Part shown: positions 2,086 through 39,317 of the stretch, piece by piece
Layout: every line of letters begins with the position of its first letter
Position numbering within the stretch: the first letter of the stretch is position 1
Origin: Pirellulales bacterium
GTDB lineage: Bacteria > Planctomycetota > Planctomycetia > Pirellulales > PALSA-1355
NCBI GenBank assembly: GCA_963733035.1
Contig: CAVTBU010000005.1
Span: 64,001 to 128,000 of the forward strand
Length of the DNA: 64,000 bases
Reading direction: 5' to 3'
Translations under genes and position numbers: made by a program
The notes under the pieces: model-generated
What the model saw: only the letters and a program-made list of their open reading frames with translations
Databases searched by the model: none
What the model was told of the DNA's origin: nothing

Positions 2086-2115
2086 GTCAGCACATCCCAA
2101 TCTCTAATCGTGCGC

Positions 2116-2805
2116 TCACATCGCTTGCCGCAGTCGGCTTCTCGCTCGATAGCACAGCTTTCTGGCAGCTTCGCTCGAACATCCGAGTCTGCTCCCAATC
2201 TCTCGAAATGTCATGCGATCTTGCTCACGCATGATGAACGCGTCTCGCATTCGCTCCGGCAGAGCCTGAAGAACCGCGTTAAACCGGTGGGACAATTCGT
2301 GATTGAGCAGTACCGCTTCAGGAGTTGCTGGTTCAGTCCGTAAGGCAATCTTCAGTTCAAAGTCAGGCTCTAGGGATTTTTCCCGCGAGATGTCACGCTT
2401 CTTGGCGTGCTGGTAGAATCTGGCGGCATCAGCCGCTTGATTGAGGAGGATTCGTCGCAACCAGCCGAGGAGCTGCCGGCGTGAATCACCGCGGAAATCG
2501 CGGATGTTACGGTGAGCCTCCAACGCGGTTGCTTGCACCAAATCCGCCGGGTCAAATTTTGCCCGAAGCGAAATCGAAACGTTCTGTCTTGCCAGTTTTA
2601 GGAGATACTGATGATTGGCTTGAAGTAGCTTCCCGAGAGACTCCGACGAGCCCTCACGCGCTTCGGAAATCCAGCGATTAATTTGATCTGCACGAGCCTG
2701 CAATGGGGTGTCGTCGCGGCTGGTCAACAATTCGCCTCGCTTCAATCGACAAACTCGCTGCGTTCTCGCGAGTACGCTGGCAGTAGGTGTAACGGGCAAA
2801 TGCAT
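2116..2805 (-). CDS. ECF RNA polymerase sigma-70 factor, planctomycete type (TIGR02984-like); start uncertain
   Basis: Region 2 (YLLKLARQ...DPADLVQATALEAHR...FRG...WLRRIL) and region 4 (ALPERMRDAFIMR...TFREIGSRLGCSSEAARKLCYRARSRL). Confidence 0.88.
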   Translation of the reverse strand: MHLPVTPTASVLARTQRVCRLKRGELLTSRDDTPLQARADQINRWISEAREGSSESLGKLLQANHQYLLKLARQNVSISLRAKFDPADLVQATALEAHRNIRDFRGDSRRQLLGWLRRILLNQAADAARFYQHAKKRDISREKSLEPDFELKIALRTEPATPEAVLLNHELSHRFNAVLQALPERMRDAFIMREQDRMTFREIGSRLGCSSEAARKLCYRARSRLRQAM

Positions 2806-2996
2806 CAGGGTTGACGTTTGGACTATGTCGTTTTGAAACCAACTCGTAAAAGCGTCGTCGATTATGGACAATGAGATGGACAGAGCAGGTCCAACCGGAC
2901 ATCTGTTCACCGAAGGCTGCTCAATCAAATGCGGCTGCCTTAGAAGCGATGCCCACACGCGTCGCCCAGAAAAAATATTCTTTAGGAGTGCCAAGA

Positions 2997-3458
2997 ATGA
3001 CAACTCTGCGCTGGAGTCTTATGTTGAAAGCCCTCGTTGTTGCGATGTCGCTGGTCGCGATGATGGCTCATGCCGATTCGCCAGCGCCGACCAGCCAGCC
3101 ACAGCCGGTAGAGAAAGATATGCACGAGTTCATGGAGTACGTTTTCCAGCCGACTTATAAGCGGTTGAAGGCGTTAATGGCGTCCGAACCCGCTGACAAC
3201 AATGCCTGGAAAGGAATTAGGGCCGACGCCCTAATCCTGGCAGAAGGCGGAAATCTTCTGATTATCCGCAAGTCAAAGGACGATGCGGCAACGTGGGACG
3301 AACTGAGCACCGCCGTGCGGAAAGCTGGAGGGAGCATGTACCAGGCAGCGAAGAAAAAGGACTACAAGTCCGCCCGTCAGCACTATGAAGCGATGCTGAA
3401 GAACTGCAATGCCTGTCACAACAAGTTTGCGGAAGGGGAGCACCAACTGTCGCCGTAG
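2997..3458 (+). CDS. Secreted class II-like (four-helix) cytochrome c
   Basis: Signal peptide, helical body, single C-terminal CxxCH (CNACH); AGGAG SD. Confidence 0.8.
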   Translation: MTTLRWSLMLKALVVAMSLVAMMAHADSPAPTSQPQPVEKDMHEFMEYVFQPTYKRLKALMASEPADNNAWKGIRADALILAEGGNLLIIRKSKDDAATWDELSTAVRKAGGSMYQAAKKKDYKSARQHYEAMLKNCNACHNKFAEGEHQLSP

Positions 3459-3534
3459 AAGCCTTCGTGGACACCAGAGCCGTTCAAAATGACGGCAGCG
3501 ATAAGCAACCAACTAAATCTCAAGGATAACTGTT

Positions 3535-3638
3535 GTGAAACATCTCTACATCCTGATCCCACTGTTCGTGATGGTTGCGTTCGCATCTGCTGATGAGCCA
3601 ATGCGTGAAAGGATTGAATGGAGTGACATTTGGGTCAC
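3535..3638 (+). pseudogene. 5' fragment of a secreted protein (SGNH/GDSL hydrolase-like N-terminus) truncated by IS3
   Basis: Own translation from GTG 3535: MKHLYILIPLFVMVAFASADEPMRERIEWSDIWVT, then the IS begins; AAGGA SD; family assignment from memory of the RERIEWxDIW motif. Confidence 0.5.
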
Positions 3639-3719
3639 TGAGGCGGACCCCAAAAACTGGGCGCGCTGATAAGGTGTGGTTTCCGGGTGCGGAGACGACC
3701 GAATCAGGAGTGTGCCAGC

Positions 3720-4007
3720 ATGACGCGGAAGCGGCGGGTGTTTGGGGCGGCGTTCAAGGCCAAGGTGGCTTTGGCGGCGGTCCGAGGTGACAGGACGACG
3801 GCCCAGTTGGCCAGCGAGTTCGGCGTGCACACCAGCCAGGTCACGGCCTGGAAGAAGCAGCTCTTGGAGCAAGCGGCCGGACTGTTCGAGGACGGCCGCG
3901 CGCGACGCGACGAGCAGTCGGCGGGCGAGCAGGAACTTTACGAGCAGATCGGCCGCTTGAAGATGGAGGTCGAGTGGTTGAAAAAAAAATCTGCCGAGCT
4001 CGCCTGA
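3720..4007 (+). CDS. IS3 transposase OrfA (HTH)
   Basis: FKAKVALAAVRGDRTTAQLASEFGVHTSQVTAWKKQLL...LYEQIGRLKMEVEWLKKK. Confidence 0.92.
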   Translation: MTRKRRVFGAAFKAKVALAAVRGDRTTAQLASEFGVHTSQVTAWKKQLLEQAAGLFEDGRARRDEQSAGEQELYEQIGRLKMEVEWLKKKSAELA

Positions 4008-4845
4008 GGCCAAGCGAAGATGCATCGACACCCATCACGCCCCGTTGAGTATCGCCCGACAGTGCGAGCTGGTCGGCCTGCCGCGCAGCACCCGGTATTA
4101 CGTGCCGAGCGGCGAGACGGCCGAGAACCTGGCGCTGATGAAGCGGATCGACGAGCAGTATTTGCAAACGCCGTTTTACGGCAGCCGCAAGATGGCGATC
4201 GAGCTTGGCATCAATCGCAAGCATGCTCAGCGACTGATGCGGTTGATGGGTTTGGAGGCGGTGGGCGTCAAGCGACGCACCACGCGACCGGCCGCCGGAC
4301 ACAAGATTTACCCGTATTTGCTGCGGAATCTGGAGATTACGCGGCCCGACCAGGTGTGGGCCAGCGACATCACGTACATTCCGTTGCGCCACGGCTTTTT
4401 GTATCTGACGGCGGTGATGGACTGGTTCAGTCGCTACGTGTTGGCCTGGCGGTTGTCGAACACGCTCGAAGGAAGATTTTGCCTAGAAGCACTCGACGAG
4501 GCACTGGCCACCAAGCGCCCGGAGATTTTCAACAGCGATCAAGGAAGCCAGTTCACGGCGGCGGCCTTCACGGGCCGATTGGAGAAGTGTGGCGTGGCGA
4601 TCTCGATGGACGGTCGCGGTCGGGCGCTCGACAACGTGTTCATCGAACGGCTGTGGCGGAGCGTGAAGTACGAGGAGGTGCACCTGCGGGACTACGCCGA
4701 TGGTTGGGAGGCGGAGCAATCGCTGGCCCGCTACTTCGAGTTCTACTGCCAGCGACGAATCCACCAGGCCCTCGGCTACCGCACGCCGGCCGAGTTGTAC
4801 GGGCAGAAAACAGCGCGAAACGTTCGGCGCTCAAATCCCTGTTGA
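3982..4845 (+). CDS. IS3 transposase OrfB (DDE/rve catalytic domain), joined to OrfA at an A9 run
   Basis: WASDITYI...MDWFSRYVLAW...NSDQGSQF...DNVFIERLWRSVKYE; frame open from the A9 run (3981-3989). Confidence 0.92.
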   Translation, partial: KKNLPSSPEAKRRCIDTHHAPLSIARQCELVGLPRSTRYYVPSGETAENLALMKRIDEQYLQTPFYGSRKMAIELGINRKHAQRLMRLMGLEAVGVKRRTTRPAAGHKIYPYLLRNLEITRPDQVWASDITYIPLRHGFLYLTAVMDWFSRYVLAWRLSNTLEGRFCLEALDEALATKRPEIFNSDQGSQFTAAAFTGRLEKCGVAISMDGRGRALDNVFIERLWRSVKYEEVHLRDYADGWEAEQSLARYFEFYCQRRIHQALGYRTPAELYGQKTARNVRRSNPC

Positions 4846-5415
4846 GGCAGGGTTAAAGAGGAGAATCAAACGGAACCCAAACCGTCGTCAGCCGTCGCGG
4901 CCGCGCGAGACCCGTGAGAGGTCTCACGGGCCGCCAGACCCGGCGACCTACATCTTATCCAAGCCCCAAAACTGTCCAACAGTTGGGGTCCACCTCAGGC
5001 ATCTGCCAGCGCATTTGCTGGAAAAGATATCTGAAATCGTTCTTGGCGAACGCATTATCGAGGTCCGCTCGCAATCCACGCCAGCGGGAAGCTTGACCGT
5101 GAACGCCTAAGTGAACTTTGCCGCATTGTTCGAGGCAGCACATTACGTCCGCGCATTGATTGGATCAATAAAAGGCGAAGCGAATACGACCTCACTCCAG
5201 CGGATGAACCGGAATGCAGCCAGTCTGTCGCTGTAGCAAAGCTGGTGGACTACTGGGAGAATTCATAGTCGCATTGGTGGTACGGAGGGCAGAAAGGTTG
5301 GGTAGTCTCGGGCGCTGTTCCAATCGAGCCGATTCCTCAAAAGGGCAGGTTCGACAGCCACCGCCGGTTTGGTTCGATCATTGTTGGAATGCACTACTGC
5401 TAGAGAAAAGTCACA

Positions 5416-6199
5416 ATGGCAAATGCACCAGTCGAAGACCGCTTGTCTCGTGAATGGGAAACCCTGCAAAAGGACTGGTATTCACTGTATCAATGGCAGG
5501 GCACTGCAGCGGTCGGTCACACAGAGCGCATAGCCAAGCTGATTCTTGACGCCTTTGACAAAGTGGGCCTACTGACAGCGGACTTGCGAGAAACCAACTT
5601 CAATGTGAACCATCAAGGACACGCACAACTGAATAATGACGTTGCTCAGTTCACTGAAAAGCGATTCTGCCGGGCGCTTTTCAACGAAGGCAATATCGAC
5701 CCCTTAGGCTGCATTTTGGATTACGAAGTGCCCCTAGGAGAGTTCCAAGCGGCTCGGCACGGTGACATTGATCTTCTGAGCGAAAAAGAAAGGCGCACTG
5801 TTCTTCTTGGAAGCCAAAGGGCCTCACTCGAATGAATCTATCTTGAAAGGCATCCTGCAGGCGTTTGTGTATTCCTCGCTTATCGCGGGTGAGAGAAAAG
5901 GAGTATTTCTCAAGGAGTTTCGTCGGGCATCTGATGTCAAGTTAGTTCCTGCCGTGCTCACCTTTAAATGTGCAGCGTCCGGACAACAATTGAAGAATAT
6001 CGAATGCTACCCCCGTCTGCGGACGTTATTGAAGTCACTCGATGGGTCGCTCGCAAAAAAGGGCCTTTCACCAATGCAGTTTTTTGTTGTCGAGGGCGAT
6101 TCCGCGGATTTTGAAAAATGTTTAGTTCAACCGGAACCAAACGGCAAAATCCTGTTTTGCAAAGGCTTTCTCCCTCAGATTAGCAAAGCCGATGTTTGA
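5416..6199 (+). pseudogene. PD-(D/E)XK-type nuclease-like protein split by one frameshift near 5800
   Basis: ORF 5416-5835 gives DYEVPL...HGDIDLL and ORF 5807-6199 continues EAKG...SILKGILQAFVY; together they form a D...ExK...Q..Y nuclease motif. Confidence 0.55.
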
Positions 6200-6404
6200 C
6201 GAGGTTGATTGCGATTATGGGAATAGCGCACGCTCAGCCTCAGGGCAGCTTTCGTCATATCCGAGATCTCGTTGCTTCACCCCGTTCCTGACACGGGTAG
6301 ATATGATATGTCGGAGCATCGATTTAGCAGCGAATGCGCCGAAGGTGTGAGTACGATGGGGTGGTTCGCTTCCCACATCTCGCATCGTTACGCCGGTCAT
6401 AGCC

Positions 6405-7415
6405 ATGCCTCCCAAGAAGAAACTTCCCAAAGCAACTCGACCCGACGCTGAGCGGCGATTGAGCCAGTCGGATCGGCTCGCGCGGCTTCTGAGAATTCTG
6501 GAACACGTCCAGGGGCGTGGGCGCTGGTCGGCGAAGGAATTGGCTGAGGCGGAGGAATGCACCGAGCGAACCATCTACCGCGCAATGCAATCGCTGGAGT
6601 TGGCGGGCGTTCCTTGGTACTTCGATAAAGCTGAACGTTCATATCGAGTTCGTGCGGATTACAAGTTCCCTGCGCTCAGTATGACAAGTCAGGAACTGAT
6701 CGATCAGGCTGCCGCTTCTGTGGTAGCGGTAGCCGTATCAGGATCAAAGACACCGCTTGCAATAAATAGGAAACTAAAGGCAGCGGCGACCGCCGGTGAA
6801 GTGCTCGATGATGCAGAAAAACTGATTTCCGTGCTTGGGCTGCAAATGGCAGAACACGGAAAGCACCGGGACGTGCTTCGGACGGTACAACGGGCACTTC
6901 TTGATCGCAAGCAACTGGCTGGCAAGTACAAAAGCCCTTACGATGCCAAATCGAAGCAGCTTCTACTGACGCCCTATCGACTGTGCCTCGTCAAGCAGGC
7001 TTGGTATCTGATTGCTACTCCGAAGGACTCGGATGCCCCACGAACTTACAGAGTCGCCCGATTCAACTCTCTGCGTGAAACCGTCACGACAGCAAATGTT
7101 CCACAGGAGTTCGACCTCAAGGAGTACTTTGGGGATGCCTGGGCGGCGTATCGCGGCGACAAGAATTACAAAGTCGAGATCGAGTTTACCAAGGACTCCG
7201 CCGACTTGGTGGTGGAAACCACGTGGCACGCCACGCAGGAAGTGCGGCGGCAAAAGAACGGCACAGTTCGGCTCTCTTTTCGCGTGGATGGGTTGAACGA
7301 GATCGTTCACTGGGTGCTGGGTTGGTCCGGTCGGGCACGGGTAATTCAACCTGTCGAACTACGCGAGCTCCTCGTCAGCCACCTCCAGGCTGCACTTACG
7401 CTAAACCAGGGTTGA
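6405..7415 (+). CDS. WYL-domain transcriptional regulator 2 (HTH-WYL-WCX)
   Basis: HTH (SAKELAEAEECTERTIYRAMQSLE), TPYRLCLVKQAWYLIA, YRVARF, HWVLGWSGRARVIQPVELRE. Confidence 0.93.
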   Translation: MPPKKKLPKATRPDAERRLSQSDRLARLLRILEHVQGRGRWSAKELAEAEECTERTIYRAMQSLELAGVPWYFDKAERSYRVRADYKFPALSMTSQELIDQAAASVVAVAVSGSKTPLAINRKLKAAATAGEVLDDAEKLISVLGLQMAEHGKHRDVLRTVQRALLDRKQLAGKYKSPYDAKSKQLLLTPYRLCLVKQAWYLIATPKDSDAPRTYRVARFNSLRETVTTANVPQEFDLKEYFGDAWAAYRGDKNYKVEIEFTKDSADLVVETTWHATQEVRRQKNGTVRLSFRVDGLNEIVHWVLGWSGRARVIQPVELRELLVSHLQAALTLNQG

Positions 7416-7892
7416 GCCGCCAAACGCTCGCTTTGCGGCACTTCGGCTCGGCTCGGACGGCGACCTGATCGATTTTGACATTTGGTCTCCTCAAACCAAT
7501 CCGCTGCCCATCGTGCTGGCAAAAGACTACGTCCATGTGCTTGTGAACTGTACGGATTGAATGCTCCAGCAATGGATTCCCGTTCACTGACCCACACCTG
7601 TCATTGACATCGGGTATTTATAATACGCGGCGATTTGAGGCTAGATCAGACGATGCAGGCACCGCTCAGGTGCAGCGAGTCATCTCCATCTCACAGTTCG
7701 AGGGTTGTATCCACGGAAAGGCGGGGCTCGGCATAGGTTCGCAGCAGAACCGTCCTCCAACAACCCATCGACTGATCCGATGAGCTACGAGACGACGTTG
7801 AGCAATGGAAAACCCAATGCGTCTGCGTGCCTCAAGTCGCATCTCTTTCAACTAGCGTGGGTAACAGCAAGGTCCGACTGACAGGAGTGTGA

Positions 7893-8447
7893 ATGGAAAA
7901 CGAGGAATGGCTTTCGGAAGCGTGCATTGACCTCGATGAAAACGGCTCGCTTGACGAGTCCTGGACCCTCGACGATTTGATCCGTACCGTCGTCGGCTTC
8001 ACTTTCGTCCTCGGGGTACCAATCTGGCTGCTGTCCATGATTCCCGACTACTTGGAATCCTGGCAAAAGCGTCCCGGACTCACCGGTTGTGCGACGCAAT
8101 GTTTTCTGTTTTGGTTTTCACCAATCTTCCTGGGCATCGCACGAGCTCTCGCGGATTCGAACCGGCGGGTGAATCACCCACGCATCCGGTTTTGGCAGAT
8201 TGTAGTGCTTAGCACCTCCGTGCTTGGATTCCTTGGCAGCTTTGCTCTGCTGGTTTGGGATTTGTACATGCTCGACACATTCCTTGCACTCTACCAACGC
8301 GACCGCGAGGTCGCGATCCAGGTGCCGCTCTATTTCGCCACCAGCATGATCATGGGGGTTGGTTTGGGTTGGCTTATTGGCAAGTGGTGCGACGAGGACC
8401 TGCGAGAGTCTGAACTGGAGCTTGAGGAGATTAATGACCGAGGATGA
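7893..8447 (+). CDS. Hypothetical membrane protein (about 4 TM segments)
   Basis: Four hydrophobic stretches, acidic termini, AGGAG SD; overlaps the next gene. Confidence 0.55.
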   Translation: MENEEWLSEACIDLDENGSLDESWTLDDLIRTVVGFTFVLGVPIWLLSMIPDYLESWQKRPGLTGCATQCFLFWFSPIFLGIARALADSNRRVNHPRIRFWQIVVLSTSVLGFLGSFALLVWDLYMLDTFLALYQRDREVAIQVPLYFATSMIMGVGLGWLIGKWCDEDLRESELELEEINDRG

Positions 8448-9024
8448 CCAACGGCCGCACGTGACGATTGTTCGGCTAGAACGACTGTTTCGTTTGTATC
8501 CAAACCGGCCACTCATGCGGGAGGCTGTGCGGAACTGGCTGCGGGAGCTGGCCCGAACCGAATTCGTGGGAGTTCCCCTCACCGGAGCGTACTACTGGGT
8601 TCCAATGCTCGGGCAAAACGGGCAAGTCACTTGGCAGATCAATGAGTTTTTTGACCATTGGCTGCCAAGTTCCGACCACGTCTATGTCTGGCGGCACGTG
8701 CGCGACTACTTGCAGTCTCACTGGCAAAGTAAATTGAAACGAGTCGGCTGCTGCAGCTTGCCCCGGGGTCGAGTATGCCGTCCTTGCATCACAGGACCGG
8801 ACGGACGAATTTCAACCACGCCCGTGATTTATCACGGCAACGATTGCCCGCTGGGAGCCGCCGGATTCGAGTTCATCCGATCCAAGTTCAATCTCGATCA
8901 ATCGGCTCGGAGTGTTTTTGACGTTCACGAACAGATGCTCACCGAAGACGCCGCGTTCATTTCGCAGATTTTGGGTATCGATCTGGGGGGACCGATTGTC
9001 AAACCAAAGTTCAGAGTCAGCTAG
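8434..9024 (+). CDS. Hypothetical protein
   Basis: ATG 8434 with GAGGAG SD; protein-like composition (LPRGRV, YHGND, FDVHEQM). Confidence 0.6.
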   Translation: MTEDDQRPHVTIVRLERLFRLYPNRPLMREAVRNWLRELARTEFVGVPLTGAYYWVPMLGQNGQVTWQINEFFDHWLPSSDHVYVWRHVRDYLQSHWQSKLKRVGCCSLPRGRVCRPCITGPDGRISTTPVIYHGNDCPLGAAGFEFIRSKFNLDQSARSVFDVHEQMLTEDAAFISQILGIDLGGPIVKPKFRVS

Positions 9025-9047
9025 ACCAGAAACATAGGAGATGCAAT

Positions 9048-9287
9048 TTGGCCAAGTACTACGTCGAGTCTGGAAAAGTCCAGGTGATCGTTCACGCCGA
9101 CGGCGTTCGGGAAGCCGCTGCCAAGATGGCTGCCATGTCGCGACACCGATTCGCCGACACATCCATCATTACGACGATTTCCCAAGCCGGTTTCGAGCTG
9201 TCGGAAGACACCACCGTCATGATCACCACCCAGGCATTCGGGCAGCAGCCACCGCCCAAACCCGATCCGTCCACCGTCGCCGAGTAG
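9048..9287 (+). CDS. Small hypothetical protein
   Basis: TTG start with AGGAG SD; MAKYYVESG...SQAGF. Confidence 0.55.
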   Translation: MAKYYVESGKVQVIVHADGVREAAAKMAAMSRHRFADTSIITTISQAGFELSEDTTVMITTQAFGQQPPPKPDPSTVAE

Positions 9288-9469
9288 ATTCCATTCAGAC
9301 AAGTTCAGGAACGAAACATGAACAGCAGGTTCGCAAGGACTACTCTTTTGGCTGTACGTAGCCTATGTATCGTGCTGGGCTGCCCGCCAGAGAGAGGCCT
9401 ATCAGCGCCAGTTGCGGGCGAAGCTTAATGTCTTGGACGCAGTAGATTTTACAAAGGACCCATCCGACG

Positions 9470-10498
9470 ATGTCGATTTACCACCAACCCTTTGGCTGTG
9501 ATGACCTCTGTCCCGACGTGCAAATCGATGTGGGACCACCAAAACGAATCCGCTGCTTCGTAGGGGGCTGCAAACATATCCTCCGTTGTCCAACTAATAA
9601 AGACGACGGGGAAGCATGTCCTGACCACAAGATTCGCTGCCACTCCTCAGGCACTTATTCCTATGCCGATGTCCGAGGCAACCTAATTGTCGATGCCGAA
9701 CTCTTTGCAACTCGCGTCGTTGGCCATCCCTTCAAATACGAGACGGATCGTATTGGCAACGAGAACTCTGAAGATGCGTTGACTTGGAATGTCTTTCGCT
9801 CGTTTCAGCACGAGAAATGCCTTCATCGAGTCGCTGAGTTAATCATCGGGCAAGCAATCAAGGACGAGCCTCAGCTTTACCTATGGGGTTTGCGGCTGTC
9901 GGATAATAGTTTCGAGCCATGGGACTTGTTGATTGCTGCCCGAACGCGTTTCGAATCCCATCTACCGGTGGAGCGACCTCAGACTGAGCATGATATTGCT
10001 CTTCACTTACCAGGGAAGTATCTGATCTTGATCGAAGCAAAGTTTACCAGCCCGAATACGTTCTATACGGAAGGACCTCGCAGGAACAAATTGTCGCTCA
10101 CCAAAAACGAGCTACTCGATCTGTACTGGGATCACATGACCAAGACCTTAAATCTCGAAAAGGCGCATGCGGTGAACCGTGTCCCTTATCAGCTGTGGCG
10201 CAACCTAATCTTCGCCGAATGGATGGCTAGCAAAGACAGTTCGTCTACCAAGCCATTCCTCGCCAGTCTCACTCGCGAGGACCACGAGGTTGAGAGTTGT
10301 CGTGAATTTCGAAGCCTCCTAAACGACGAAGCGTGCTTCACCCATATTTCCTGGGAAGGTACTACGAAACACGCTGGCGTACAGCCTGCCTCAAGGCTTT
10401 GGTGCTATCTGGCGAACAAGACGGCTAGCCTGCAGCGTGCGTTTAAGATGAATGAGGGACAGGAGTCTCATCGTATCACCTTATGTGGCGGTAGGTGA
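9470..10498 (+). CDS. Putative PD-(D/E)XK restriction-endonuclease-fold protein with Cys-rich N-terminus
   Basis: SEDALTWNVFRSF, TEHDIAL...ILIEAKFTS, YQLWRN; N-terminal Cys/His cluster. Confidence 0.65.
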   Translation: MSIYHQPFGCDDLCPDVQIDVGPPKRIRCFVGGCKHILRCPTNKDDGEACPDHKIRCHSSGTYSYADVRGNLIVDAELFATRVVGHPFKYETDRIGNENSEDALTWNVFRSFQHEKCLHRVAELIIGQAIKDEPQLYLWGLRLSDNSFEPWDLLIAARTRFESHLPVERPQTEHDIALHLPGKYLILIEAKFTSPNTFYTEGPRRNKLSLTKNELLDLYWDHMTKTLNLEKAHAVNRVPYQLWRNLIFAEWMASKDSSSTKPFLASLTREDHEVESCREFRSLLNDEACFTHISWEGTTKHAGVQPASRLWCYLANKTASLQRAFKMNEGQESHRITLCGGR

Positions 10499-12054: not shown

Positions 12055-12932
12055 CGAGATACGTCGAAATCTACCAGCCCGAGCTCTGGTTCTTCCCGCC
12101 CGACGATCCGCCGCCAAGTAAAGAACAGCGAGCATGGTGGGTCTCGCTGGAAAACACCGCCAACCCCCTCAGCACGTTCGTTGGGCACGATGCAGCAGTC
12201 CGCCGCCTCGGTCGCATCGCATTCCAGGCATTCGCTCGCCACAACCGTGAATGCCGTGACCATTCTTTTGCCCTGATCGGACCTCAGTCGTGCGGCAAGG
12301 CAACTTTGGCTCGACTTTTCGGCGAACTTGTTGGGCTGCCATTCGTCGAGATCGATTCCAGTATCTGCACCGATCTCAGTGATATCGCCGTTGCCATTGC
12401 CCAAGTTCTCGAAAACATCCCCGTCACGGGCGATGAGAAATACAGCAGCCTGGAACTACAAGACCTCGGCGATGGGAAAATCGTGATCCCGCCATGCATC
12501 GTGTTCATCGACGAGGTCGATCAACTGCCGAAGAAGGTTCAAGTGGAGTTGCGGCGAGCCATCGAAGGTCATTTCGAATCTAATGGATGGAAGTTCGATA
12601 GCAGTGCCGTTTGTTGGATCGTTGCCACGACCGAGTATACCTTGCCCGACGGATTCGACAGGCTGACTAGAATTGTGCTGAAGCCACTCAGCGTTGACGA
12701 AGTAAGTCGGGTTGTCGCGCTTCACAATCCCGATTTCCCGCCCGAGGTCTGCCATTTCATCGCCCAGCATGCAGGCACGCCACGAGATGCTTTAGCATTT
12801 GCCAGTGAGGTTCGAGCTGAGCATGAGATGGGCGCCGATTTGAAGGCTGCTGCATCGACCGTGGCTCGGGACTGGGGCGCCCAGCAGCCAGCGCCATGGG
12901 CAAATCGGCTGAAGCTGAACGGACGGAACTAG
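12051..12932 (+). CDS. AAA+ ATPase, RuvB-like
   Basis: LSTFVGH...LIGPQSCGKATLA (Walker A variant), IVFIDEVD (Walker B), IVATT, GTPRDAL (sensor 2). Confidence 0.8.
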   Translation: MTRYVEIYQPELWFFPPDDPPPSKEQRAWWVSLENTANPLSTFVGHDAAVRRLGRIAFQAFARHNRECRDHSFALIGPQSCGKATLARLFGELVGLPFVEIDSSICTDLSDIAVAIAQVLENIPVTGDEKYSSLELQDLGDGKIVIPPCIVFIDEVDQLPKKVQVELRRAIEGHFESNGWKFDSSAVCWIVATTEYTLPDGFDRLTRIVLKPLSVDEVSRVVALHNPDFPPEVCHFIAQHAGTPRDALAFASEVRAEHEMGADLKAAASTVARDWGAQQPAPWANRLKLNGRN

Positions 12933-13348: not shown

Positions 13349-13990
13349 TTATTTGAACTCCTCCAATTCACCGTTGCACTCTTTTCGAACCGCAATTGCC
13401 GCCCCCATGTATGTCCGCGCCTCGGATAATAGAGAGGCAACAACTTCGGCAGGAGCCATTTCGACCTCGGCCTGCTGGTTCCAGTGACGCTGATACATCT
13501 CGATTGCCATGTAGGTCCACGACACATCGTGTTCAGCGCAGTTTCTTACGTTAGCATATTCTGCCAGTTCCGCTGCGACCTCTCGGGTGAAGCCCTGCAG
13601 CCGTATGTTCGGTTCTTCCTGCCAGGGGGTCAGCAAGGGCAACTCAACTGTTCCGTCTGCGTCTACAGGGGCATAGGTGCCAACTACAATCGGTATCACG
13701 ACGTAACCGATAGTGGACTTCGCGGCGAACCACGCTTCCTGGGCGATGCACTCGCGCAAGTTCGACCTGTATTTCTCGTCCATGAAGTTCGGATATTCCG
13801 ATTCCAGTGACTCGATGCTTTCAACCTTCCAACGGCCAACCCGACACTTGTTCAGCAGGTCGGCGATTTCCTGGGCGTGCTCGGCCTTGTCGAAGAAGAA
13901 GGCTTTGCCGCGGCAGCCGGCAGTAACCTCCGGCATCGTGTGCTCAAGGGCTTCGTCAAAATGAGGCGGTCTTACAACTACGTATTTCAT
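13349..13990 (-). CDS. Hypothetical protein
   Basis: ATG 13990 with AAGGA SD; lies downstream of the conserved leader element. Confidence 0.6.
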   Translation of the reverse strand: MKYVVVRPPHFDEALEHTMPEVTAGCRGKAFFFDKAEHAQEIADLLNKCRVGRWKVESIESLESEYPNFMDEKYRSNLRECIAQEAWFAAKSTIGYVVIPIVVGTYAPVDADGTVELPLLTPWQEEPNIRLQGFTREVAAELAEYANVRNCAEHDVSWTYMAIEMYQRHWNQQAEVEMAPAEVVASLLSEARTYMGAAIAVRKECNGELEEFK

Positions 13991-14076
13991 GATTTCTTTC
14001 CTTATTTGGAATTGTGACTCGGCGCCACCGTTCGTCATCTAGCGCAACACAACGACGGATGCGAGAGGCGAAGGAA

Positions 14077-14197
14077 GCATCCCAGGACTCAAGCGAGAGT
14101 GGCTGGGGAGACCGGAGAGAGCCGGATCTCAGTTAAGAAGGTCTTTCAACGTTGCGGTAAATGTATCATGAGCTTAAGTCGGATGCAACACCAACTT
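14077..14197 (-). promoter_or_regulatory. Sigma70-type promoter (TTGCAT-N17-TACATT) plus structured 5' leader, copy 1
   Basis: Homologous to 38648-38769; -35 at 14188-14183, -10 at 14165-14160; two hairpins downstream. Confidence 0.7.
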
Positions 14198-14300
14198 GTC
14201 GTGCGGCCATTGCACATGCAGTAAGCAACTTTGATCAAGACCAAAGTCCGCGACGAGTGCTGATGACGAACTTGAGGAAGGTGAATTGTCTCTTTGCAAA

Positions 14301-14323
14301 AATCAAAAACAGGTTTTTCAAAA
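14301..14323. repeat. AT-rich palindromic box AAAAAC-NN-GTTTTTCAAAA
   Basis: Related copies at 38795-38818 and 39292-39317, half-site at 11789-11799. Confidence 0.5.
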
Positions 14324-14373: not shown

Positions 14374-14634
14374 TCAAACGTCGAAATGCCGTTCAATGAA
14401 CCTGCCTACTCGTTTACGGCTCCAATGAAATCCGCTGCCCTTGCGACGGATTGCCAGTCCTTCTTCGAGCGCCTTCCGAGTCGGTTCGCCGTAGCTTCGG
14501 TAACCAGCCTGCTCCAACTCACCGATCAGGGTGCGCAACGGAACGCCGAACTCCCAGGCGACATGAGTTAGACATTCATACGTTTCCGATGTATTGTGCT
14601 CAGTCTGCTCCATCCGTCCTCCTTTCTCGCTCAA
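14374..14634 (-). CDS. Small putative DNA-binding protein
   Basis: LTHVAWEFGVPLRTLIGELEQAGYR...PTRKALEEGLA; HTH-like pattern. Confidence 0.55.
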   Translation of the reverse strand: MSEKGGRMEQTEHNTSETYECLTHVAWEFGVPLRTLIGELEQAGYRSYGEPTRKALEEGLAIRRKGSGFHWSRKRVGRFIERHFDV

Positions 14635-14826
14635 GTTCGGTACCGAGTTGGATTTTCAGCTTCTCCGCCACTAGGGCAATTTCGGGTAGCGACCACAGTC
14701 GCCGCCCACCGACACGAAGACTGGGCTCGGGAATCTTTTCCGAAGACGGTGAAAGCCCTCCCAGGCGTCAAAACCAAGAGAGACCTGGACGGCGGCACGA
14801 TTGGTTGCATCACCGATTGATCAAAC

Positions 14827-16329: not shown

Positions 16330-17997
16330 CTATTTTGTCGGCTTCCAGTTTGCGTTCCTCATACGCGCTGGAATTTTGCTTGCGGCAAGATCGAACTCAG
16401 CCCGATCGAAACAGATTTCGCTGCTCCCTGTGACACAATCGGTGAATGGCGGTCGCAAGTGGACTTTTCCCGTGGAGATTTTTGATGCGCCGGGCATCGT
16501 CGGGTGACGAGCGAACCAGACATCAATGCGCTTGACTAAACCACGGATCGCAATGCAGAGCAAGTCGATATCACCTCCGCACAAGGCGACCCGAAACCGT
16601 GCCGCTTGCCCCATGACCTCGGCCACCAGTTTCTCTGAGGCGCCTTGCTCGGTATTGATCTTTGCTGGCTTTCCAAACGGCAAATCAGTTCCGGCAAATG
16701 CTTGGATTTCCTCCAAGGTATCTATCGGTTGCATCCGCAGGCGAGACTCCAGGTCACGGTCGAGCACGCGTTCCGTCAACAGATCGACAATCAACCGCTG
16801 AAGGATGGGCTGTGAGATCGAGCGTGGGCGACAGACGGTTCGTCCCTTAGTGTGGTACGTCGGACACTCAAGTCGCCGGTAATACACGACTTTGTCTTTG
16901 CGGATATTACGGTGATGATTGACGTTCAACGTCGTGCCACAATGACCACAGACCACCAAGCTCTTCAGGGGATCGATGACAGGTGAAGGCTTCCTGCGGC
17001 GCTGTTGCCGGAGCCTCGCTTGAACGCGGTCAAACTGTGCCCGCTCGACGAGGGCCGGGTGGACATTCTTGACGACAACCCAGTCGGACCGGTCGTTGGC
17101 AATGCGGCCGCGCGTGCGATACCCAAACTTCTTCGTAAACGCAGCCTCTAGCACAATCTCTCCGCCAAGCAGGCCCGCGTATTTTCCAACGTGTCGACGA
17201 TTCCAGACCCGATCGCCTACGTAGACTGGATTGGCCAAAATCTTACGAATCGTATCGGAACTCCAATGGTGGCCCTCCGGCGACGGTACCCGCCGTCGAT
17301 TCAGCGAGACGGCCAATCCCCGGATCGACATCCCTCGATCGTACGACCTAAAGCGCCACCGCACGGTCCGAATAATCGAGGAGTCGAGTGTCGGTACCAG
17401 GCTACCCGTCCACTCTTTGGGTTTTGATAGCTTCTGAAGCGGAGCGAGACGCCGGACTAATTCGCCTCGCTCATCGAAGATCAATTTGTTGTAACCATAC
17501 GGAATCTTCCCGACATGAAGACGACCTTCAAGGGCGCGCTGATGTGCGCCTCGGAGAATGCCACGGGCCAGGTCGACCAGGAACGCGTGTTTCGCCTCTT
17601 GCTGAATCGTATAGATCAGCCGTCCGATGGCATCGTTCCAGGTGATTTCCCCATCCGTCACGGTTACCAGTTCAATCCCGGCGCGGCGAAGGGGACCAAT
17701 CCATTCTCCCGCCTCGATTGAATCGAATCGTCCGAACCTGTCCTGTGACCAGCACAGGATCGTCTCAAACGACTTCCTTTCAGCGTCAGCCACCATGCGT
17801 CGAAACGCCACACGCCGTCTGATGTCATCGCCAGATACGGCCAAGTCTTCGTACCACCGGACGATCTCATAGCCACGACGCTGGGCAAGCTTCTTGATTT
17901 GATCCCGTTGCTGTCTTGGACTCGACTTTTGCATCTCGCTCGACATTCGGACGTAGCCGACGGCGCGCCGCTTCGATTTGGCCCGGTTCGCACGCAT
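16330..17997 (-). CDS. Large serine recombinase 1 (resolvase + recombinase + zinc ribbon); start uncertain
   Basis: YVRMSS catalytic Ser, YEDLAVSG, SQDRFGR, PYGY, ILANPVYVG, HPALV, CGHCG. Confidence 0.93.
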   Translation of the reverse strand: MRANRAKSKRRAVGYVRMSSEMQKSSPRQQRDQIKKLAQRRGYEIVRWYEDLAVSGDDIRRRVAFRRMVADAERKSFETILCWSQDRFGRFDSIEAGEWIGPLRRAGIELVTVTDGEITWNDAIGRLIYTIQQEAKHAFLVDLARGILRGAHQRALEGRLHVGKIPYGYNKLIFDERGELVRRLAPLQKLSKPKEWTGSLVPTLDSSIIRTVRWRFRSYDRGMSIRGLAVSLNRRRVPSPEGHHWSSDTIRKILANPVYVGDRVWNRRHVGKYAGLLGGEIVLEAAFTKKFGYRTRGRIANDRSDWVVVKNVHPALVERAQFDRVQARLRQQRRRKPSPVIDPLKSLVVCGHCGTTLNVNHHRNIRKDKVVYYRRLECPTYHTKGRTVCRPRSISQPILQRLIVDLLTERVLDRDLESRLRMQPIDTLEEIQAFAGTDLPFGKPAKINTEQGASEKLVAEVMGQAARFRVALCGGDIDLLCIAIRGLVKRIDVWFARHPTMPGASKISTGKVHLRPPFTDCVTGSSEICFDRAEFDLAASKIPARMRNANWKPTK

Positions 17998-18402
17998 TGG
18001 AGGAGATCCCATTAAGGGTAGTTGTCGTAGATGGCGATTTATTTCCGCACCCGAAAACGGTACAAACAACCGCGAGCAACGCGAAGTGGAAAGATTCGCG
18101 CTAGTTCAACGTCTCCGTGCCCTCTATTCGGTGCGCTGGAGCGATGAGAGAGCCGCAACGAAGCTAGTGTGTGTGGGATCGGACGAAGACCTCGATCTAG
18201 GTGGTTCGGTGATCTGTCGCTGGGCGTCGTATTTCTCTAACCGCCACTATGAGCCTGCTGCTCGGTCGGGCCTCCATTGTCCAGCGAAGTGATCCGGCCA
18301 TCGGACCAGACGTGCAAGTTCACTCGCATCGCATCGACCATCGACGAAGGTAGAGGGACAAATCGCAGTCCCACTTCTTTGCTGTCCGCCTTTTTGTGGT
18401 CG

Positions 18403-35158: not shown

Positions 35159-35566
35159 AAATTGCCGGTGAACTTGGGCATGCGCAGGCCGGGTCGTTGG
35201 TCATCAGCCGCGAAGTCATTCGGGCAACCGTGTCAACACTTGGTAGTTGGAGGATGTCGTTTCCTGCCTTACAAACCATGCAGGACAAGCCCAGGGCATT
35301 GATATACTCAAGTCGCGCACTGGACGTTTTCGAGTCATCGCTCCGCCTTGTCGCATTCGTTGGGGCGAAGTCCTGCACTCGGCGGATCCAACGCGTACTC
35401 ATGCGTGTGGTATGATGCCCGCGTCTTTTCGGCTGGCGTGAGCTTTTGGATCGTGAACCAGTAGGGACAAGAAGTCGAAACCGTGAATGTGCGCCCTTGC
35501 TTGTCGCCACCGTTGTCGCTTCAGCACCGTGGGCAAATCGGCTGCGATTGAATGGGCGGAACTGAT

Positions 35567-37713: not shown

Positions 37714-38553
37714 TTACGCTTGCTTCGAGACTTCTTTGACTTCCAGGCACAGATCGTCATGCACTCGGAGCTGTTCCACCAAGTCAGGATGAATGACCTC
37801 GTCGTCCGCATTCTCGTACCAGCCGAAACCGTCCCGAAACCAGCCAACCCTTTCACAGACGAACCAGTCGTCGATGGAGTCATATACGGATCGCATCGCA
37901 GGAATTGCGCAAACATCTTCGTCCGTTTTCAGTACTCTGTGGGCTTTCGGTGTCAATCGTGCTCGAAAGTTTCGGTCTCTCTCGCACATGACGGCATAGC
38001 GCGGGTCCGACCACAAGAACCGAAGCAGCGACAGGCTGAGCGTATTGACCTCAATGGGCTTGCTGGTGCAGATGACCCGATAGCCTGCGTACGTCGTGTA
38101 GATACGATAGGATTGCGGTTTGAAATCGCTGCCAGCAAGCTCATCCAAGATCGACAAGCTCTCAAAAATGCACTCTAAAGGACTCATCCACGAGTATTTG
38201 CCCAGCAGCGCCCCGTCGTCCAAATCACCGTCGATGTCTGCGATAAACAGATTCCGGCTGTTCAGACAAACTGCCCCCCGTGAATTGACCGTCAGGCTTG
38301 CACTGCCCAGTTGGTAAGCGCCTGCGGTGTCGAGCACTGGCTCTCCGCCCTCAATTTCGTCGAGCGCAATCTCTTGCTCATTCCACACAAGCGCCCTGGC
38401 TCGTTTGAGCACTTCTAGGCGAGCAGGATTTTCCAGGCGACGCCGTAATTCCGCAGCTCGCATCGCAGCACGCTCCTTTTCTCGCTTTTCCCACACCTCA
38501 AATGAAATGGGAGCTGCCACACTTCGTAACTTTTCCAAAAACGTATCAGTCAT
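37714..38553 (-). CDS. Hypothetical protein with AEP primase-like motifs
   Basis: LFIADIDGD, YRIYTTYAGYRVI, DPRY...FRARLTPK; AAGGA SD. Confidence 0.55.
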   Translation of the reverse strand: MTDTFLEKLRSVAAPISFEVWEKREKERAAMRAAELRRRLENPARLEVLKRARALVWNEQEIALDEIEGGEPVLDTAGAYQLGSASLTVNSRGAVCLNSRNLFIADIDGDLDDGALLGKYSWMSPLECIFESLSILDELAGSDFKPQSYRIYTTYAGYRVICTSKPIEVNTLSLSLLRFLWSDPRYAVMCERDRNFRARLTPKAHRVLKTDEDVCAIPAMRSVYDSIDDWFVCERVGWFRDGFGWYENADDEVIHPDLVEQLRVHDDLCLEVKEVSKQA

Positions 38554-38647
38554 AATTCGTATTCCTTAGACGCCGACGGCGCATCGCCGCGGCGTAGTTG
38601 TTCTGAAAGTTCGCCCACAAAATGCAGTCCAACGAAGACTGCGGTGG

Positions 38648-38769
38648 GCATCCCAGCACTCGAGCGAGAGGATGGGGGCGTCCGAGAGAGCGGACACTCA
38701 GTAGAGAGAAAGTTCTTTCAACGTTGCGGTTACTTTAGCATGAGTCGAAGTCGCATGCAACACCAACTT
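38648..38769 (-). promoter_or_regulatory. Sigma70-type promoter (TTGCAT-N17-TAAAGT) plus structured 5' leader, copy 2
   Basis: Homologous to 14077-14197; -35 at 38760-38755, -10 at 38737-38732. Confidence 0.7.
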
Positions 38770-38844
38770 TTTGCGCGCGACGGTTTGTTTTGCGATTTTC
38801 AAAAACCAGTTTCCAAAACTGCAACACTCCACCGATGCAAATGC

Positions 38845-39060
38845 TCACTGAGGTGTATCGTCATTGTTACTGGCTCTGTCCATCGTGAGCTTGAGCTTCT
38901 CTGAAATCGGCACGATCTCCTCGGCAGTCCAGACTCTACGGCTACCAACTCGCAGCCGAGGCTCCGGAACCTGCCCCGTAGCCAGAAGATAATGGATCTT
39001 GTAGGGCGCAACGCGCAGCAACTCTGCCACGTCGCCGAGCGAATAAAATTGTTTGGTCAT
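38845..39060 (-). CDS. Small MerR/excisionase-type HTH protein
   Basis: YSLGDVAELLRVAPYKIHYLLATGQVPEP...GSRRVWTAEEI; GGAGG SD. Confidence 0.82.
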   Translation of the reverse strand: MTKQFYSLGDVAELLRVAPYKIHYLLATGQVPEPRLRVGSRRVWTAEEIVPISEKLKLTMDRASNNDDTPQ

Positions 39061-39291: not shown

Positions 39292-39317
39292 ATTTTGAAA
39301 AACAAGTTTTTCAAAAT
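39292..39317. repeat. Perfect 12-bp inverted repeat ATTTTGAAAAAC-AA-GTTTTTCAAAAT
   Basis: Read directly from the sequence; degenerate copies elsewhere. Confidence 0.7.

What the first reader, a model, noticed from the sequence alone, without database searches (positions are those of the whole stretch)
14077..14197. Duplicated promoter plus covarying structured leader RNA (second copy 38648-38769)
Seen: two ~120-bp non-coding homologues 24.6 kb apart in front of unrelated genes. Both have TTGCAT-N17-(TG)nTAnAnT and then an invariant ACCGCAACGTTGAAAGA. Hairpin 1 has different stems (GAGAtCCGG/CCGGTCTC vs GTGTCCG/CGGACGC) but the same CTCTCT loop. Hairpin 2 has a TCGCTY loop and ends in CTGGGATGC. 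Conserved loops on changed but still paired stems are the signature of a functional RNA. Inference: an undescribed cis-regulatory leader or small RNA of a planctomycete mobile-element family, for example antitermination or antisense immunity as in the P4 CI and P1 C4 systems.
Basis: partly seen in the sequence, partly recalled or inferred. Interest (0 to 1): 0.72.

Follow-up and report, generated by a model that had tools for sequence, protein, structure and literature searches.

The report
Duplicated promoter with structured leader RNA
Two copies of a likely promoter followed by a twin-hairpin RNA leader sit in front of unrelated genes in two related mobile elements, a real but rare and so far function-less candidate regulatory cassette.

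Summary
Two non-coding stretches on the minus strand, 14077-14205 and 38648-38777, are 76.5% identical over 132 bp. They are the only copies in the 6.6-Mb genome.

Each has TTGCAT-N17-TGnTAnAnT, an invariant 17-mer at the predicted start site, and two adjacent hairpins. No Rfam family matches.

A versus B gives only 2 of 11 aligned pairs with compensatory changes, all in hairpin 1. A Monte Carlo test of stem retention gives p of about 0.03-0.06.

I found one distant third member in another genome of the same order (G172). It keeps the promoter core, AACUG and two adjacent hairpins with entirely different stems, but not the loop sequences.

All three lie downstream of an Xis/MerR-like small gene and upstream of unrelated ORFan genes. 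The best reading is a regulated promoter plus cis-acting structured 5' leader, at the junction between the regulatory module and a variable cargo slot of an integrative-element family.

The mechanism is inferred. Control of read-through is my leading guess. P4 CI / P1 C4-style antisense pairing found no support. No expression data were available. Interest is moderate.

The parts
14183..14197 (-). Copy A: invariant 15-mer AAGTTGGTGTTGCAT containing the -35-like TTGCAT (14188-14183)
   Evidence: Identical in copy B. G172 has GGCGTTGCTT at the same place.
14160..14168 (-). Copy A: extended -10-like TGATACATT, 17 nt after TTGCAT
   Evidence: Read. B has TGCTAAAGT and G172 has TGATACATT at the same spacing. 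The consensus scan does not flag it.
14142..14158 (-). Copy A: invariant 17-mer ACCGCAACGTTGAAAGA with the palindrome CAACGTTG. It spans the predicted start site (about 14153, inferred from the -10 position).
   Evidence: only 2 sites in the window with up to 3 mismatches. CGCAAC is also kept in G172.
14108..14130 (-). Copy A hairpin 1: GAGAuCCGG / loop CUCUCU / CCGGUCUC
   Evidence: RNAfold (-10.2 kcal/mol locally). 2 of its 4 aligned pairs show compensatory change against B.
14081..14107 (-). Copy A hairpin 2: CCCAG-cc-ACUC / UCGCUU / GAGU-c-CUGGG
   Evidence: RNAfold. All 7 aligned pairs are invariant against B. The outer CCAG/CUGG is kept and the inner stem replaced in G172.
14057..14082 (-). 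Copy A hairpin 3 (not shared): GGAUGC / 14-nt CU-rich loop / GCAUCC, followed by GUCGUUGUGUUG. It overlaps the 3' arm of hairpin 2 by 2 nt.
   Evidence: RNAfold of 14030-14165.
13349..13990 (-). Copy A downstream gene, 213 aa ORFan. The predicted 5' UTR is about 163 nt.
   Evidence: no family; 2 unnamed homologues besides the window's own protein.
14303..14323 (.). AT-rich palindrome TTTTGAAAAACCTGTTTTTGA upstream of promoter A, a candidate operator
   Evidence: at up to 3 mismatches the motif occurs at 14303-14323, at 39293-39316 (read on both strands) and at one 3-mismatch site elsewhere on contig C5. The reversed control gave 1 match.
14374..14634 (-). Locus A second small gene (86 aa, HTH-like by eye), a weak homologue of the gene in the same position in G172
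   Evidence: (24% identity over 63 aa, pairwise E 5e-4). No Pfam hit.
14642..14740 (-). Locus A remnant of the Xis/MerR-like gene (C-terminal half only, preceded by a stop)
   Evidence: 52% identity over 31 aa to the B protein.
38755..38769 (-). Copy B: invariant 15-mer with -35-like TTGCAT (38760-38755)
38732..38740 (-). Copy B: extended -10-like TGCTAAAGT
   Evidence: Not flagged by the consensus scan.
38714..38730 (-). Copy B: invariant 17-mer ACCGCAACGTTGAAAGA. The predicted start site is about 38725.
38678..38697 (-). Copy B hairpin 1: GUGUCCG / CUCUCU / CGGACGC, with one G-U pair that would be a C-A mismatch on the other strand
   Evidence: (-10.3 kcal/mol).
38652..38676 (-). Copy B hairpin 2: CCCA...CUC / UCGCUC / GAG...UGGG
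38614..38642 (-). Copy B only: terminator-like hairpin GCAGUCUUCGUUGGACUGC plus AUUUUGUGGG, directly after the conserved block
   Evidence: The number of such sites in the region equals the shuffle expectation.
37714..38553 (-). Copy B downstream gene, 279 aa with no family. The predicted 5' UTR is about 172 nt.
   Evidence: One search found unnamed homologues of 61-79% identity. One search gave a weak AEP-like lead only.
38845..39060 (-). Locus B Xis/MerR-like small DNA-binding gene (71 aa)
   Evidence: Pfam MerR_1 3.9e-5 and HTH_17; PADLOC mad1 1.3e-7; PHROG excisionase/DNA-binding.
38795..38820 (.). Degenerate copy of the AT-rich palindrome between the xis-like stop codon and promoter B
   Evidence: Read by eye. 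It falls below the 3-mismatch search.
39293..39316 (.). Near-perfect AT-rich palindrome upstream of the xis-like gene of locus B
12889..12930 (+). 3' end of the AAA-ATPase gene of locus A. The same 42 bp recur at 35522-35563 (81% identity). This is the second conserved flank of the variable cargo slot.
   Evidence: and (repeat family D3).
35522..35563 (+). Locus B copy of the 42-bp flank, a remnant of the ATPase gene end

Best explanation
The two copies are paralogous regulatory cassettes of two related integrative elements. Each cassette has four parts:
1. An AT-rich palindromic candidate operator.
2. A sigma-70-type promoter (TTGCAT-N17-TGnTAnAnT) whose -35 and start-site regions are embedded in invariant blocks. 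GTTGC and GCAAC form an inverted repeat around the core promoter.
3. A 145-172-nt structured 5' leader whose first ~90 nt fold into two directly adjacent hairpins.
4. A variable cargo gene or operon.

The cassette sits at the boundary between the element's small DNA-binding genes (Xis/MerR-like, plus a second HTH-like gene) and a cargo slot. The other flank of that slot is a conserved 42-bp remnant.

Shown: the homology, the copy number, the non-coding nature, the conserved promoter geometry, the predicted hairpins and the context.

Inferred: that the promoter fires and that the twin hairpins act as RNA in cis. My leading mechanism, at about 1 in 4, is that the nascent twin hairpin controls transcription read-through into the cargo. 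That could be put-like antitermination or antipausing, or modulation of Rho or intrinsic termination in the C-rich leader. The element's HTH proteins would set promoter activity through the palindromes.
For: Homology and uniqueness:
- 76.5% identity over 132 bp.
- The covariance model finds only these 2 sites in the genome.
- The 21-position promoter core scores 21/21 at these two sites, and nothing else in 13.3 million positions of the genome scores 17 or more.

Third member (G172):
- Found with the A/B-only model inside 17 Xis-adjacent loci (11 bits, E 0.05 for 51.7 kb).
- It lies about 500 nt downstream of the best Xis homologue (59% identity), on the same strand.
- It scores 18/21 on the A/B-derived core.
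- It is the only other genome of 400 in the order sample with the generalised core at up to 1 mismatch.

Structure:
- Hairpin 1 has 2 of 4 aligned pairs with compensatory change, and all 9 A/B differences in columns 81-103 fall in the stem, none in the 6-nt loop.
- G172 folds into two adjacent hairpins of 7 and 9 bp with unrelated stem sequences. Its z-score is -3.6, and 0 of 200 shuffles fold as well.
- One G-U pair in B favours the minus-strand RNA.

Context:
- An Xis-like gene lies upstream in all three, and the downstream genes are unrelated.
- Related elements without the leader (G239, G187) carry strong GC-rich hairpins between the second small gene and the next gene (sequence printed). 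This suggests termination is a theme at this junction.
- The first 100 nt of the leaders are C-rich: C/G is 1.85, 1.48 and 1.30.

Coding is excluded.
Against: - No transcript evidence of any kind.
- The promoter is weak by consensus (7 of 12 hexamer positions) and is not flagged by the scan.
- With two sequences the covariation is not significant by the shuffle control (128 of 500 shuffles reach it). The Monte Carlo p is only 0.03-0.06.
- Hairpin 2 does not covary between A and B.
- RNAfold z-scores of the 91-nt cores of A and B are modest: -1.9 and -1.4.
- The loop sequences that look functional in A and B are absent from G172.
- The G172 match is not significant genome-wide: no hit at E <= 10 in the whole-genome model search.
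- Copy A drives apparently only one gene, so processive antitermination is not obviously needed.
- A terminator-like hairpin follows the block only in B.
- Only 3 members were found, so conservation could largely reflect recent common ancestry.
Confidence: 0.5

Rival explanations
1. A mobile regulatory cassette that serves as a recombination anchor. The block is conserved because it is a promoter/operator unit at which related elements exchange cargo by homologous recombination, like the promoter-stem-loop cassettes (PeSLs) of T4-type phages. The hairpins would be incidental, or generic mRNA stabilisers or terminators, with no specific RNA function.
For: - Homology ends abruptly right after hairpin 2.
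- The genes behind it are unrelated in A, B and G172.
- A second conserved 42-bp flank (12889-12930 and 35522-35563) brackets cargo of different size and content: 1.1 kb against 3.1 kb.
- The strongest conservation lies in the promoter, the -35 block and the +1 block, not in the stems.
- PeSLs are sigma-70-like promoters plus stem-loops that flank variable genes and mediate shuffling (abstract of PMC2839356).
Against: - Only 2 copies per genome, against many for PeSLs.
- The stems changed while pairing was kept, and G172 keeps two hairpins at the same place with new sequences. A pure recombination anchor does not require that.
- Hairpins 1 and 2 are not followed by U tracts, so they are not terminators.
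Confidence: 0.25
2. A DNA-level site rather than an RNA. The invariant blocks and inverted repeats would be binding sites for element proteins: an operator array, a recombinase attachment site, or an origin of transfer or replication that is read as a DNA hairpin.
For: - The 17-mer contains the perfect palindrome CAACGTTG at the predicted start site.
- GTTGC...GCAAC flank the core promoter in all three members.
- AT-rich palindromes specific to these loci lie nearby.
- Integrase, recombinase and Xis-like genes are adjacent.
Against: - Sequence-specific protein sites should conserve sequence, whereas the stems of hairpins 1 and 2 change while staying paired.
- The block is internal to the element, not at an end.
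- No relaxase or replication initiator was identified next to A.
- The G-U pair in B would be a mismatch in the complementary strand.
Confidence: 0.1
3. A trans-acting small RNA, or an antisense immunity RNA as in P4 CI or P1 C4. In this reading a transcript of about 100-115 nt is released or processed from the leader. Its CU-rich loops (CUCUCU, CUCUCGCU) pair with target sites or Shine-Dalgarno regions, and related elements share immunity.
For: - Copy B has a terminator-like hairpin directly after the conserved block, which would give an RNA of about 110 nt.
- The loop sequences are identical in A and B while the stems differ.
- CU-rich loops resemble anti-Shine-Dalgarno seeds (general knowledge).
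Against: - No complementary target was found. The longest perfect complement in about 6 kb around each copy on the same strand is 9 nt, which is the modal longest complement of 200 shuffles.
- The reverse complement of the 17-mer occurs nowhere else.
- A and G172 lack a convincing terminator.
- The loops are not conserved in G172.
- No Rfam family was hit.
Confidence: 0.07
4. A small protein gene on the plus strand, antisense to the proposed leader.
For: The stop-to-stop frames 14018-14221 and 38530-38901 share 16 of 24 residues (blastp E 2e-6).
Against: - A 2-nt indel shifts the frame within the conserved DNA.
- The 24 shared codons have 3 synonymous against 8 non-synonymous codon differences by my count.
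- G172 has stops in all six frames across the block.
Confidence: 0.02

Closest known systems
HK022 put RNAs (putL, putR), cis-acting processive antitermination RNAs
   Same: - Two paralogous copies in one genome, each downstream of a promoter.
- About 70 nt made of two stem-loops that share sequence similarity.
- They act on the polymerase that makes them.
These features come from passages of PMC9378689. Here there are two copies, two directly adjacent hairpins (0-3 nt apart) spanning about 50-60 nt, starting about 23-30 nt after the predicted start site.
   Different: - No sequence or model similarity was shown.
- The host is not an enterobacterium and the element is not a lambdoid phage.
- Copy A precedes a single gene.
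- Activity on RNA polymerase is untested.
- The loop and junction nucleotides are not conserved in the third member.
PeSL promoter-stem-loop cassettes of T4-type phages
   Same: A sigma-70-like promoter joined to a stem-loop, repeated in front of unrelated, variable ORFan genes, with homology ending at the cassette (abstract of PMC2839356).
   Different: - PeSL stem-loops are effective terminators and occur in many copies in hyperplastic regions.
- Here there are only 2 copies, two hairpins without U tracts, and the hairpins lie downstream of the promoter inside the 5' UTR.
P4 CI and P1 C4 antisense immunity RNAs
   Different: The defining complementary target sites were looked for and not found, and no Rfam match was obtained.
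Controller-type small HTH regulators with palindromic operators (C proteins of restriction-modification systems; mad1 of MADS)
   Same: A small HTH gene is followed by palindromes and a promoter for defence or cargo genes. The B protein hits the PADLOC mad1 model at 1.3e-7.
   Different: No complete MADS or restriction-modification operon is arranged as in those systems. A structured leader is not part of those systems as far as I recall.

Membership tests
Any Rfam 15 family | Covariance-model match at or near the gathering score | tested here: not met
   There were 0 matches at gathering score over the 64-kb window. At E <= 10 only snoRNA/lncRNA noise appeared around A and B. There were 0 matches at E <= 1 in the G172 locus.
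HK022 put RNA | Lies in the transcribed region downstream of a promoter, in two paralogous copies | tested here: inconclusive
   There are two copies, each behind a conserved promoter-like core, but transcription is only predicted.
HK022 put RNA | Two adjacent stem-loops of about 70 nt in total, supported by compensatory changes | tested here: met
   All three members give predicted adjacent hairpins. A versus B has 2 compensatory pairs, and G172 has new stems. The support is modest.
HK022 put RNA | Sequence or structure homology to put | tested here: inconclusive
   No Rfam hit was found, but I do not know whether Rfam 15 holds a put model. No put sequence was compared directly.
HK022 put RNA | Suppresses pausing and termination by binding the beta-prime zinc-binding domain | not testable with these tools
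   This needs in vitro transcription or reporter assays.
P4 CI / P1 C4 antisense immunity RNA | Complementary target sites in the same transcript or element | tested here: not met
   The longest perfect complement is 9 nt in about 6 kb around each copy. The longest complement was exactly 9 nt in 103 of 200 (A) and 91 of 200 (B) shuffles and longer in about 40%. G-U pairs and gapped duplexes were not scored.
P4 CI / P1 C4 antisense immunity RNA | Processed, discrete small RNA | not testable with these tools
   No sequencing run was listed for this DNA.
PeSL cassette | Sigma-70-like promoter plus a stem-loop that terminates transcription | tested here: not met
   Hairpins 1 and 2 lack U tracts. 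The terminator scan finds a site only after copy B.
PeSL cassette | Many copies flanking variable genes | tested here: not met
   The genome holds 2 copies. They do precede unrelated genes.
Intrinsic-terminator attenuator or riboswitch-type leader | Conserved terminator and alternative antiterminator pairing | tested here: inconclusive
   In A, hairpin 3 (GGAUGC/GCAUCC) overlaps hairpin 2 by 2 nt and is followed by a G/U tract. In B a terminator-like hairpin follows. G172 has neither a U tract nor the same overlap.

The most novel reading that the evidence does not exclude
The twin hairpin is a factor-independent, put-like RNA that modifies the transcribing RNA polymerase of a planctomycete-type host. 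Cargo operons of integrative elements would then be read through terminators and Rho. This class of RNA is so far known essentially from lambdoid phage HK022 and its relatives. Here it would be coupled to a swappable cargo slot.
Probability: 0.12. Interest if true: 0.75.

Novelty: new member of a known kind. Interest (0 to 1): 0.38.

Why it matters
If the leader is functional, it would be a new cis-regulatory RNA motif tied to the cargo-expression switch of a poorly known family of integrative elements, in a phylum where almost no regulatory RNAs have been characterised.

The cassette is a promoter, an operator and a twin hairpin in front of interchangeable ORFan or defence-type genes. It could explain how such elements express newly acquired cargo, and it could be a portable expression part.

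If it is only a promoter plus a recombination anchor, it is an ordinary piece of mobile-element mosaicism.

Tried and rejected
Searches for more members with copy A or copy B as query:
- Family: 0 of 32 other genomes.
- Order sample: 2 of 400 other genomes at E <= 0.01. Both were rejected on alignment.
- Phylum sample: 12 of 400 other genomes with 22-37-nt matches. Eleven look like coding sequence in GC-rich DNA (for example AILSPEG-type), L091 looks intergenic, and none has flanking similarity. All were rejected.

Pattern and model scans:
- The exact 17-mer in genome contigs gave 69 loci, about the number I compute for chance. None scores 17 or more of 21 on the promoter core. The best model score was 14.4 bits (L070), inside a methyltransferase-like coding region.
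- The metagenome pattern scan gave 4 loci, none matching the model at the pattern site.
- Viral contig patterns gave 1 locus and then 4 identical loci. They show promoter-like similarity only.
- Plasmid and phage collections gave no match by DNA, by the 279-aa protein or by the Xis-like protein.
- Viral contigs searched with the Xis-like and 279-aa proteins gave none.

Xis-anchored search:
- 17 loci from the order sample gave only G172.
- 20 loci from the class sample gave none. The best hit was E 0.63, and L144 lies inside a coding region.
- Whole-genome model search of 5 genomes with Xis homologues found nothing convincing, and the G172 site itself was not recovered at E <= 10.
- G172's family had no further copy in 10 other genomes.

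Other checks:
- Sequencing runs: none was listed and no RNA holder was listed, so there are no expression data.
- The consensus promoter scan does not flag the promoter.
- Terminator-like sites in the B operon occur at the shuffle expectation.
- Antisense targets: none.
- Plus-strand small protein: rejected.
- A upstream ORF from the conserved AUG has 33 codons in B (ending in ATGA at the gene start) and 13 in A. It is absent in G172 and has no Shine-Dalgarno sequence by eye, so I did not adopt it.
- The 279-aa protein has no tblastn similarity to the large ORFs behind Xis homologues. The AEP-like hint from the Atlas is a lead only.
- Earlier scan notes held nothing relevant.
- A three-sequence alignment with the hairpins in register could not be made with MAFFT or the two-sequence model, because the G172 stem is offset by one column. 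The G172 pairing is therefore described from its own fold, not from a pair count.

Full report
**Observation**

Read on the minus strand, 14077-14205 and 38648-38777 align at 76.5% identity over 132 bp (blastn E 7e-22; alignments). Identity falls to background on both sides.

The pair is unique in the 6.6-Mb genome:
- BLAST finds only these two places, plus five noise hits at E 0.8-2.8.
- A covariance model built from the pair finds only them.
- A 21-position promoter core scores 21/21 at the two sites. No other of 13.3 million positions scores 17 or more.

The downstream proteins (213 and 279 aa) are unrelated.

**Not coding, not a known RNA**

A plus-strand frame shares 16 of 24 residues between the copies. 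I reject it as a gene for three reasons:
- The conserved DNA contains a 2-nt indel that shifts that frame.
- By my count the 24 shared codons differ by 3 synonymous and 8 non-synonymous codon changes.
- The third homologue has stops in all six frames.

Rfam 15 gives nothing at gathering score over the window. It gives only snoRNA/lncRNA noise at E <= 10 around either copy, and nothing in the G172 locus.

**How strong is the structure evidence?**

On the A/B alignment, 11 pairs can be placed in common columns and all 22 cells pair. Only 2 pairs, both in hairpin 1, change on both sides (C-G to U-A and G-C to C-G). Hairpin 2 is invariant.

With two sequences the shuffle control is uninformative: 128 of 500 shuffles reach the observed value. 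Sliding the partners by one to three columns drops pairing to 23-55%.

All 9 A/B differences in columns 81-103 lie in the stem and none in the 6-nt loop. I tested this in two ways:
- Replacing those 9 positions by every alternative gives a hairpin as stable as B's in 5.7% of 19,683 variants.
- Placing 9 random changes anywhere in columns 81-103 does so in 2.8% of 20,000 trials.

MFE z-scores of the 91-nt cores are -1.9 and -1.4. The A/B pair alone is therefore suggestive, not decisive.

**A third member**

Nucleotide searches found no relative (details under Tried and rejected).

I then anchored on the neighbouring gene. Upstream of copy B lies a 71-aa Xis/MerR-like protein (Pfam MerR_1 and HTH_17; PADLOC mad1 1.3e-7; PHROG excisionase/DNA-binding). 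Upstream of copy A lies a remnant of the same gene, C-terminal half only (52% identity over 31 aa).

Searching this protein in 400 genomes of the order gave matches in 15 other genomes. Running the A/B-only model without filters over the 17 resulting loci (51.7 kb) gave one full-length hit, at L105:873-1005 in genome G172 (11 bits, E 0.05). It lies about 500 nt downstream of the best Xis homologue (59% identity), on the same strand.

The G172 hit keeps these features:
- GTTGCtT-N14-TGATACATT-N3-CGCAAC, which is 18 of the 21 positions fixed in A and B. Nothing in the 13.3 million positions of my own genome reaches even 17.
- AACUG just before hairpin 1.
- Two adjacent hairpins, GUUCCAA/AUC/UUGGAAC and CCAGCGAAU/UCA/AUUCGCUGG (z -3.6, 0 of 200 shuffles as stable).
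- The outer CCAG/CUGG of hairpin 2. Every other stem position is new.

The CUCUCU and UCGCUY loops are not kept.

A generalised core pattern with up to 1 mismatch occurs in 1 of 400 other genomes of the order sample, and that genome is G172. The reversed-pattern control gave 2 hits. This pattern was written after seeing G172, so it measures rarity, not discovery.

A whole-genome model search of G172 did not recover the site at E <= 10. The call therefore rests on the restricted search space plus position and anatomy.

Twenty further Xis loci from a class-level sample gave nothing.

**Context**

The window is an accessory, defence-island-like region:
- It holds WYL regulators, REase-ARP, several DNA methyltransferases, and UvrD plus PD-(D/E)XK proteins.
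- It has almost no DNA synteny to three same-genus genomes.
- The two loci carry large serine recombinases that are 40% identical.
- Locus A also has a tyrosine integrase.

In locus A and in G172 a second small gene sits between the Xis-like gene and the cassette (24% identity over 63 aa, pairwise E 5e-4). Locus B lacks it.

An AT-rich palindrome, TTTTGAAAAACnTGTTTTTSA, occurs at 14303-14323 and 39293-39316, with one further 3-mismatch match elsewhere on the contig against 1 match of the reversed control. A degenerate copy sits at 38795-38820. G172 has its own repeated palindrome (AAATTATCGATATTT) at the equivalent places. These look like operators for the small DNA-binding proteins.

Homology between A and B stops directly after hairpin 2. 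It resumes at a 42-bp remnant of an ATPase gene end (12889-12930 and 35522-35563, 81% identity). This brackets 1.1 kb of cargo in A and 3.1 kb in B.

The cargo proteins have no family. They have only unnamed homologues. The Atlas gives a weak AEP-like lead for the 279-aa protein.

Related elements without the leader (G239, G187) carry strong GC-rich hairpins between the second small gene and a large downstream ORF (sequences printed).

**Mechanism**

Shown: a unique, non-coding, paralogous block; promoter geometry conserved in three members; predicted adjacent hairpins with changed stems; a fixed position between regulatory genes and variable cargo.

Inferred: the block is a regulated promoter, and its transcript's twin hairpin acts in cis.

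I favour control of read-through into the cargo, at about 1 in 4, for these reasons:
- The hairpins lie 23-30 nt after the predicted start site and are directly adjacent (0-3 nt apart).
- A and B conserve unpaired nucleotides.
- The first 100 nt of the leaders are C-rich (C/G 1.85, 1.48, 1.30).
- B is followed by a terminator-like hairpin.
- Sister elements have terminator-like hairpins at this junction.

This is the anatomy of the HK022 put RNAs: two copies, each downstream of an early promoter, about 70 nt, two stem-loops, acting on the polymerase without protein factors (passages of PMC9378689). Membership cannot be claimed, because no homology was shown and activity is untestable here.

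The main rival is that the block is simply a promoter/operator cassette and recombination anchor for cargo exchange, as with T4-type PeSLs (abstract of PMC2839356). Copy number and the lack of terminator character differ from PeSLs.

The P4 CI / P1 C4 idea fails its one testable defining feature: the longest perfect complement near either copy is 9 nt, which is the modal longest complement of shuffled leaders.

**Limits**

- Only three members were found.
- There are no expression data; no sequencing run was listed.
- The contigs of the cargo homologues, which may hold more copies, could not be fetched.
- The genome samples searched are samples, so 'not found in those searched' is all that can be said.
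- Literature searches turned up nothing on such a motif in Planctomycetes, but they were few and keyword-based.

**Verdict**

The feature is real and correctly described, and it is a plausible new structured leader or regulatory cassette of a rare integrative-element family. The covariation support is thin and the function is unknown. Interest is moderate.

Noticed in passing
window 16330-18069 (-) and 41257-43185 (+): Two large serine recombinase genes, 40% identical, lie in inverted orientation. They bracket about 23 kb of FHA, Ser/Thr-kinase, ECF-sigma and 3-keto-disaccharide-hydrolase genes. Whether they belong to two elements or to one invertible or excisable segment is open.
   Followed up: partly
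window 14303-14323, 39293-39316, 38795-38820, 6106-6130: The AT-rich palindrome family TTTTGAAAAACnTGTTTTTSA clusters at these loci, with one further 3-mismatch match elsewhere on contig C5. A P-like half-site pair lies upstream of a WYL regulator gene (inverted repeat I3). It is a candidate operator of the small HTH proteins.
   Followed up: partly
window 12889-12930 and 35522-35563: A 42-bp stretch, 81% identical, is the 3' end of an AAA-ATPase gene in locus A and an orphan remnant in locus B. Together with the promoter-leader it brackets a variable cargo slot.
   Followed up: partly
window 38550-38651 (-) and 14039-14080 (-): The AUG inside the conserved CUGGGAUGC opens a 33-codon frame in B whose stop overlaps the start of the 279-aa gene (ATGA). 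In A the frame has 13 codons. It is absent in G172 and has no obvious Shine-Dalgarno sequence.
   Followed up: partly
window 37714-38553 (-): The 279-aa cargo protein has a DxD-type motif (FIADIDGD) and a weak Atlas lead to AEP-like primase clusters (score 0.93; the family is on 43% of members). Related elements carry large ORFs with similar motifs behind their Xis genes, but tblastn shows no similarity.
   Followed up: partly
window 1-9500 and 43000-55000: The gene content is that of a defence island: two WYL/WCX regulators, REase-ARP, a truncated TPMT-like methyltransferase, D12, N6_N4 and Dam methyltransferases, and a UvrD helicase flanked by PD-(D/E)XK nucleases.
   Followed up: no
L106 (G239) and L107 (G187), downstream of the Xis homologues: Sister elements have an Xis-like gene, a second small gene, a strong GC-rich hairpin, then a large ORF. 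G239 also has AT-rich repeats resembling the window's palindrome (GAAATCGCAAAATCGGTTTTTCGATTTC).
   Followed up: no
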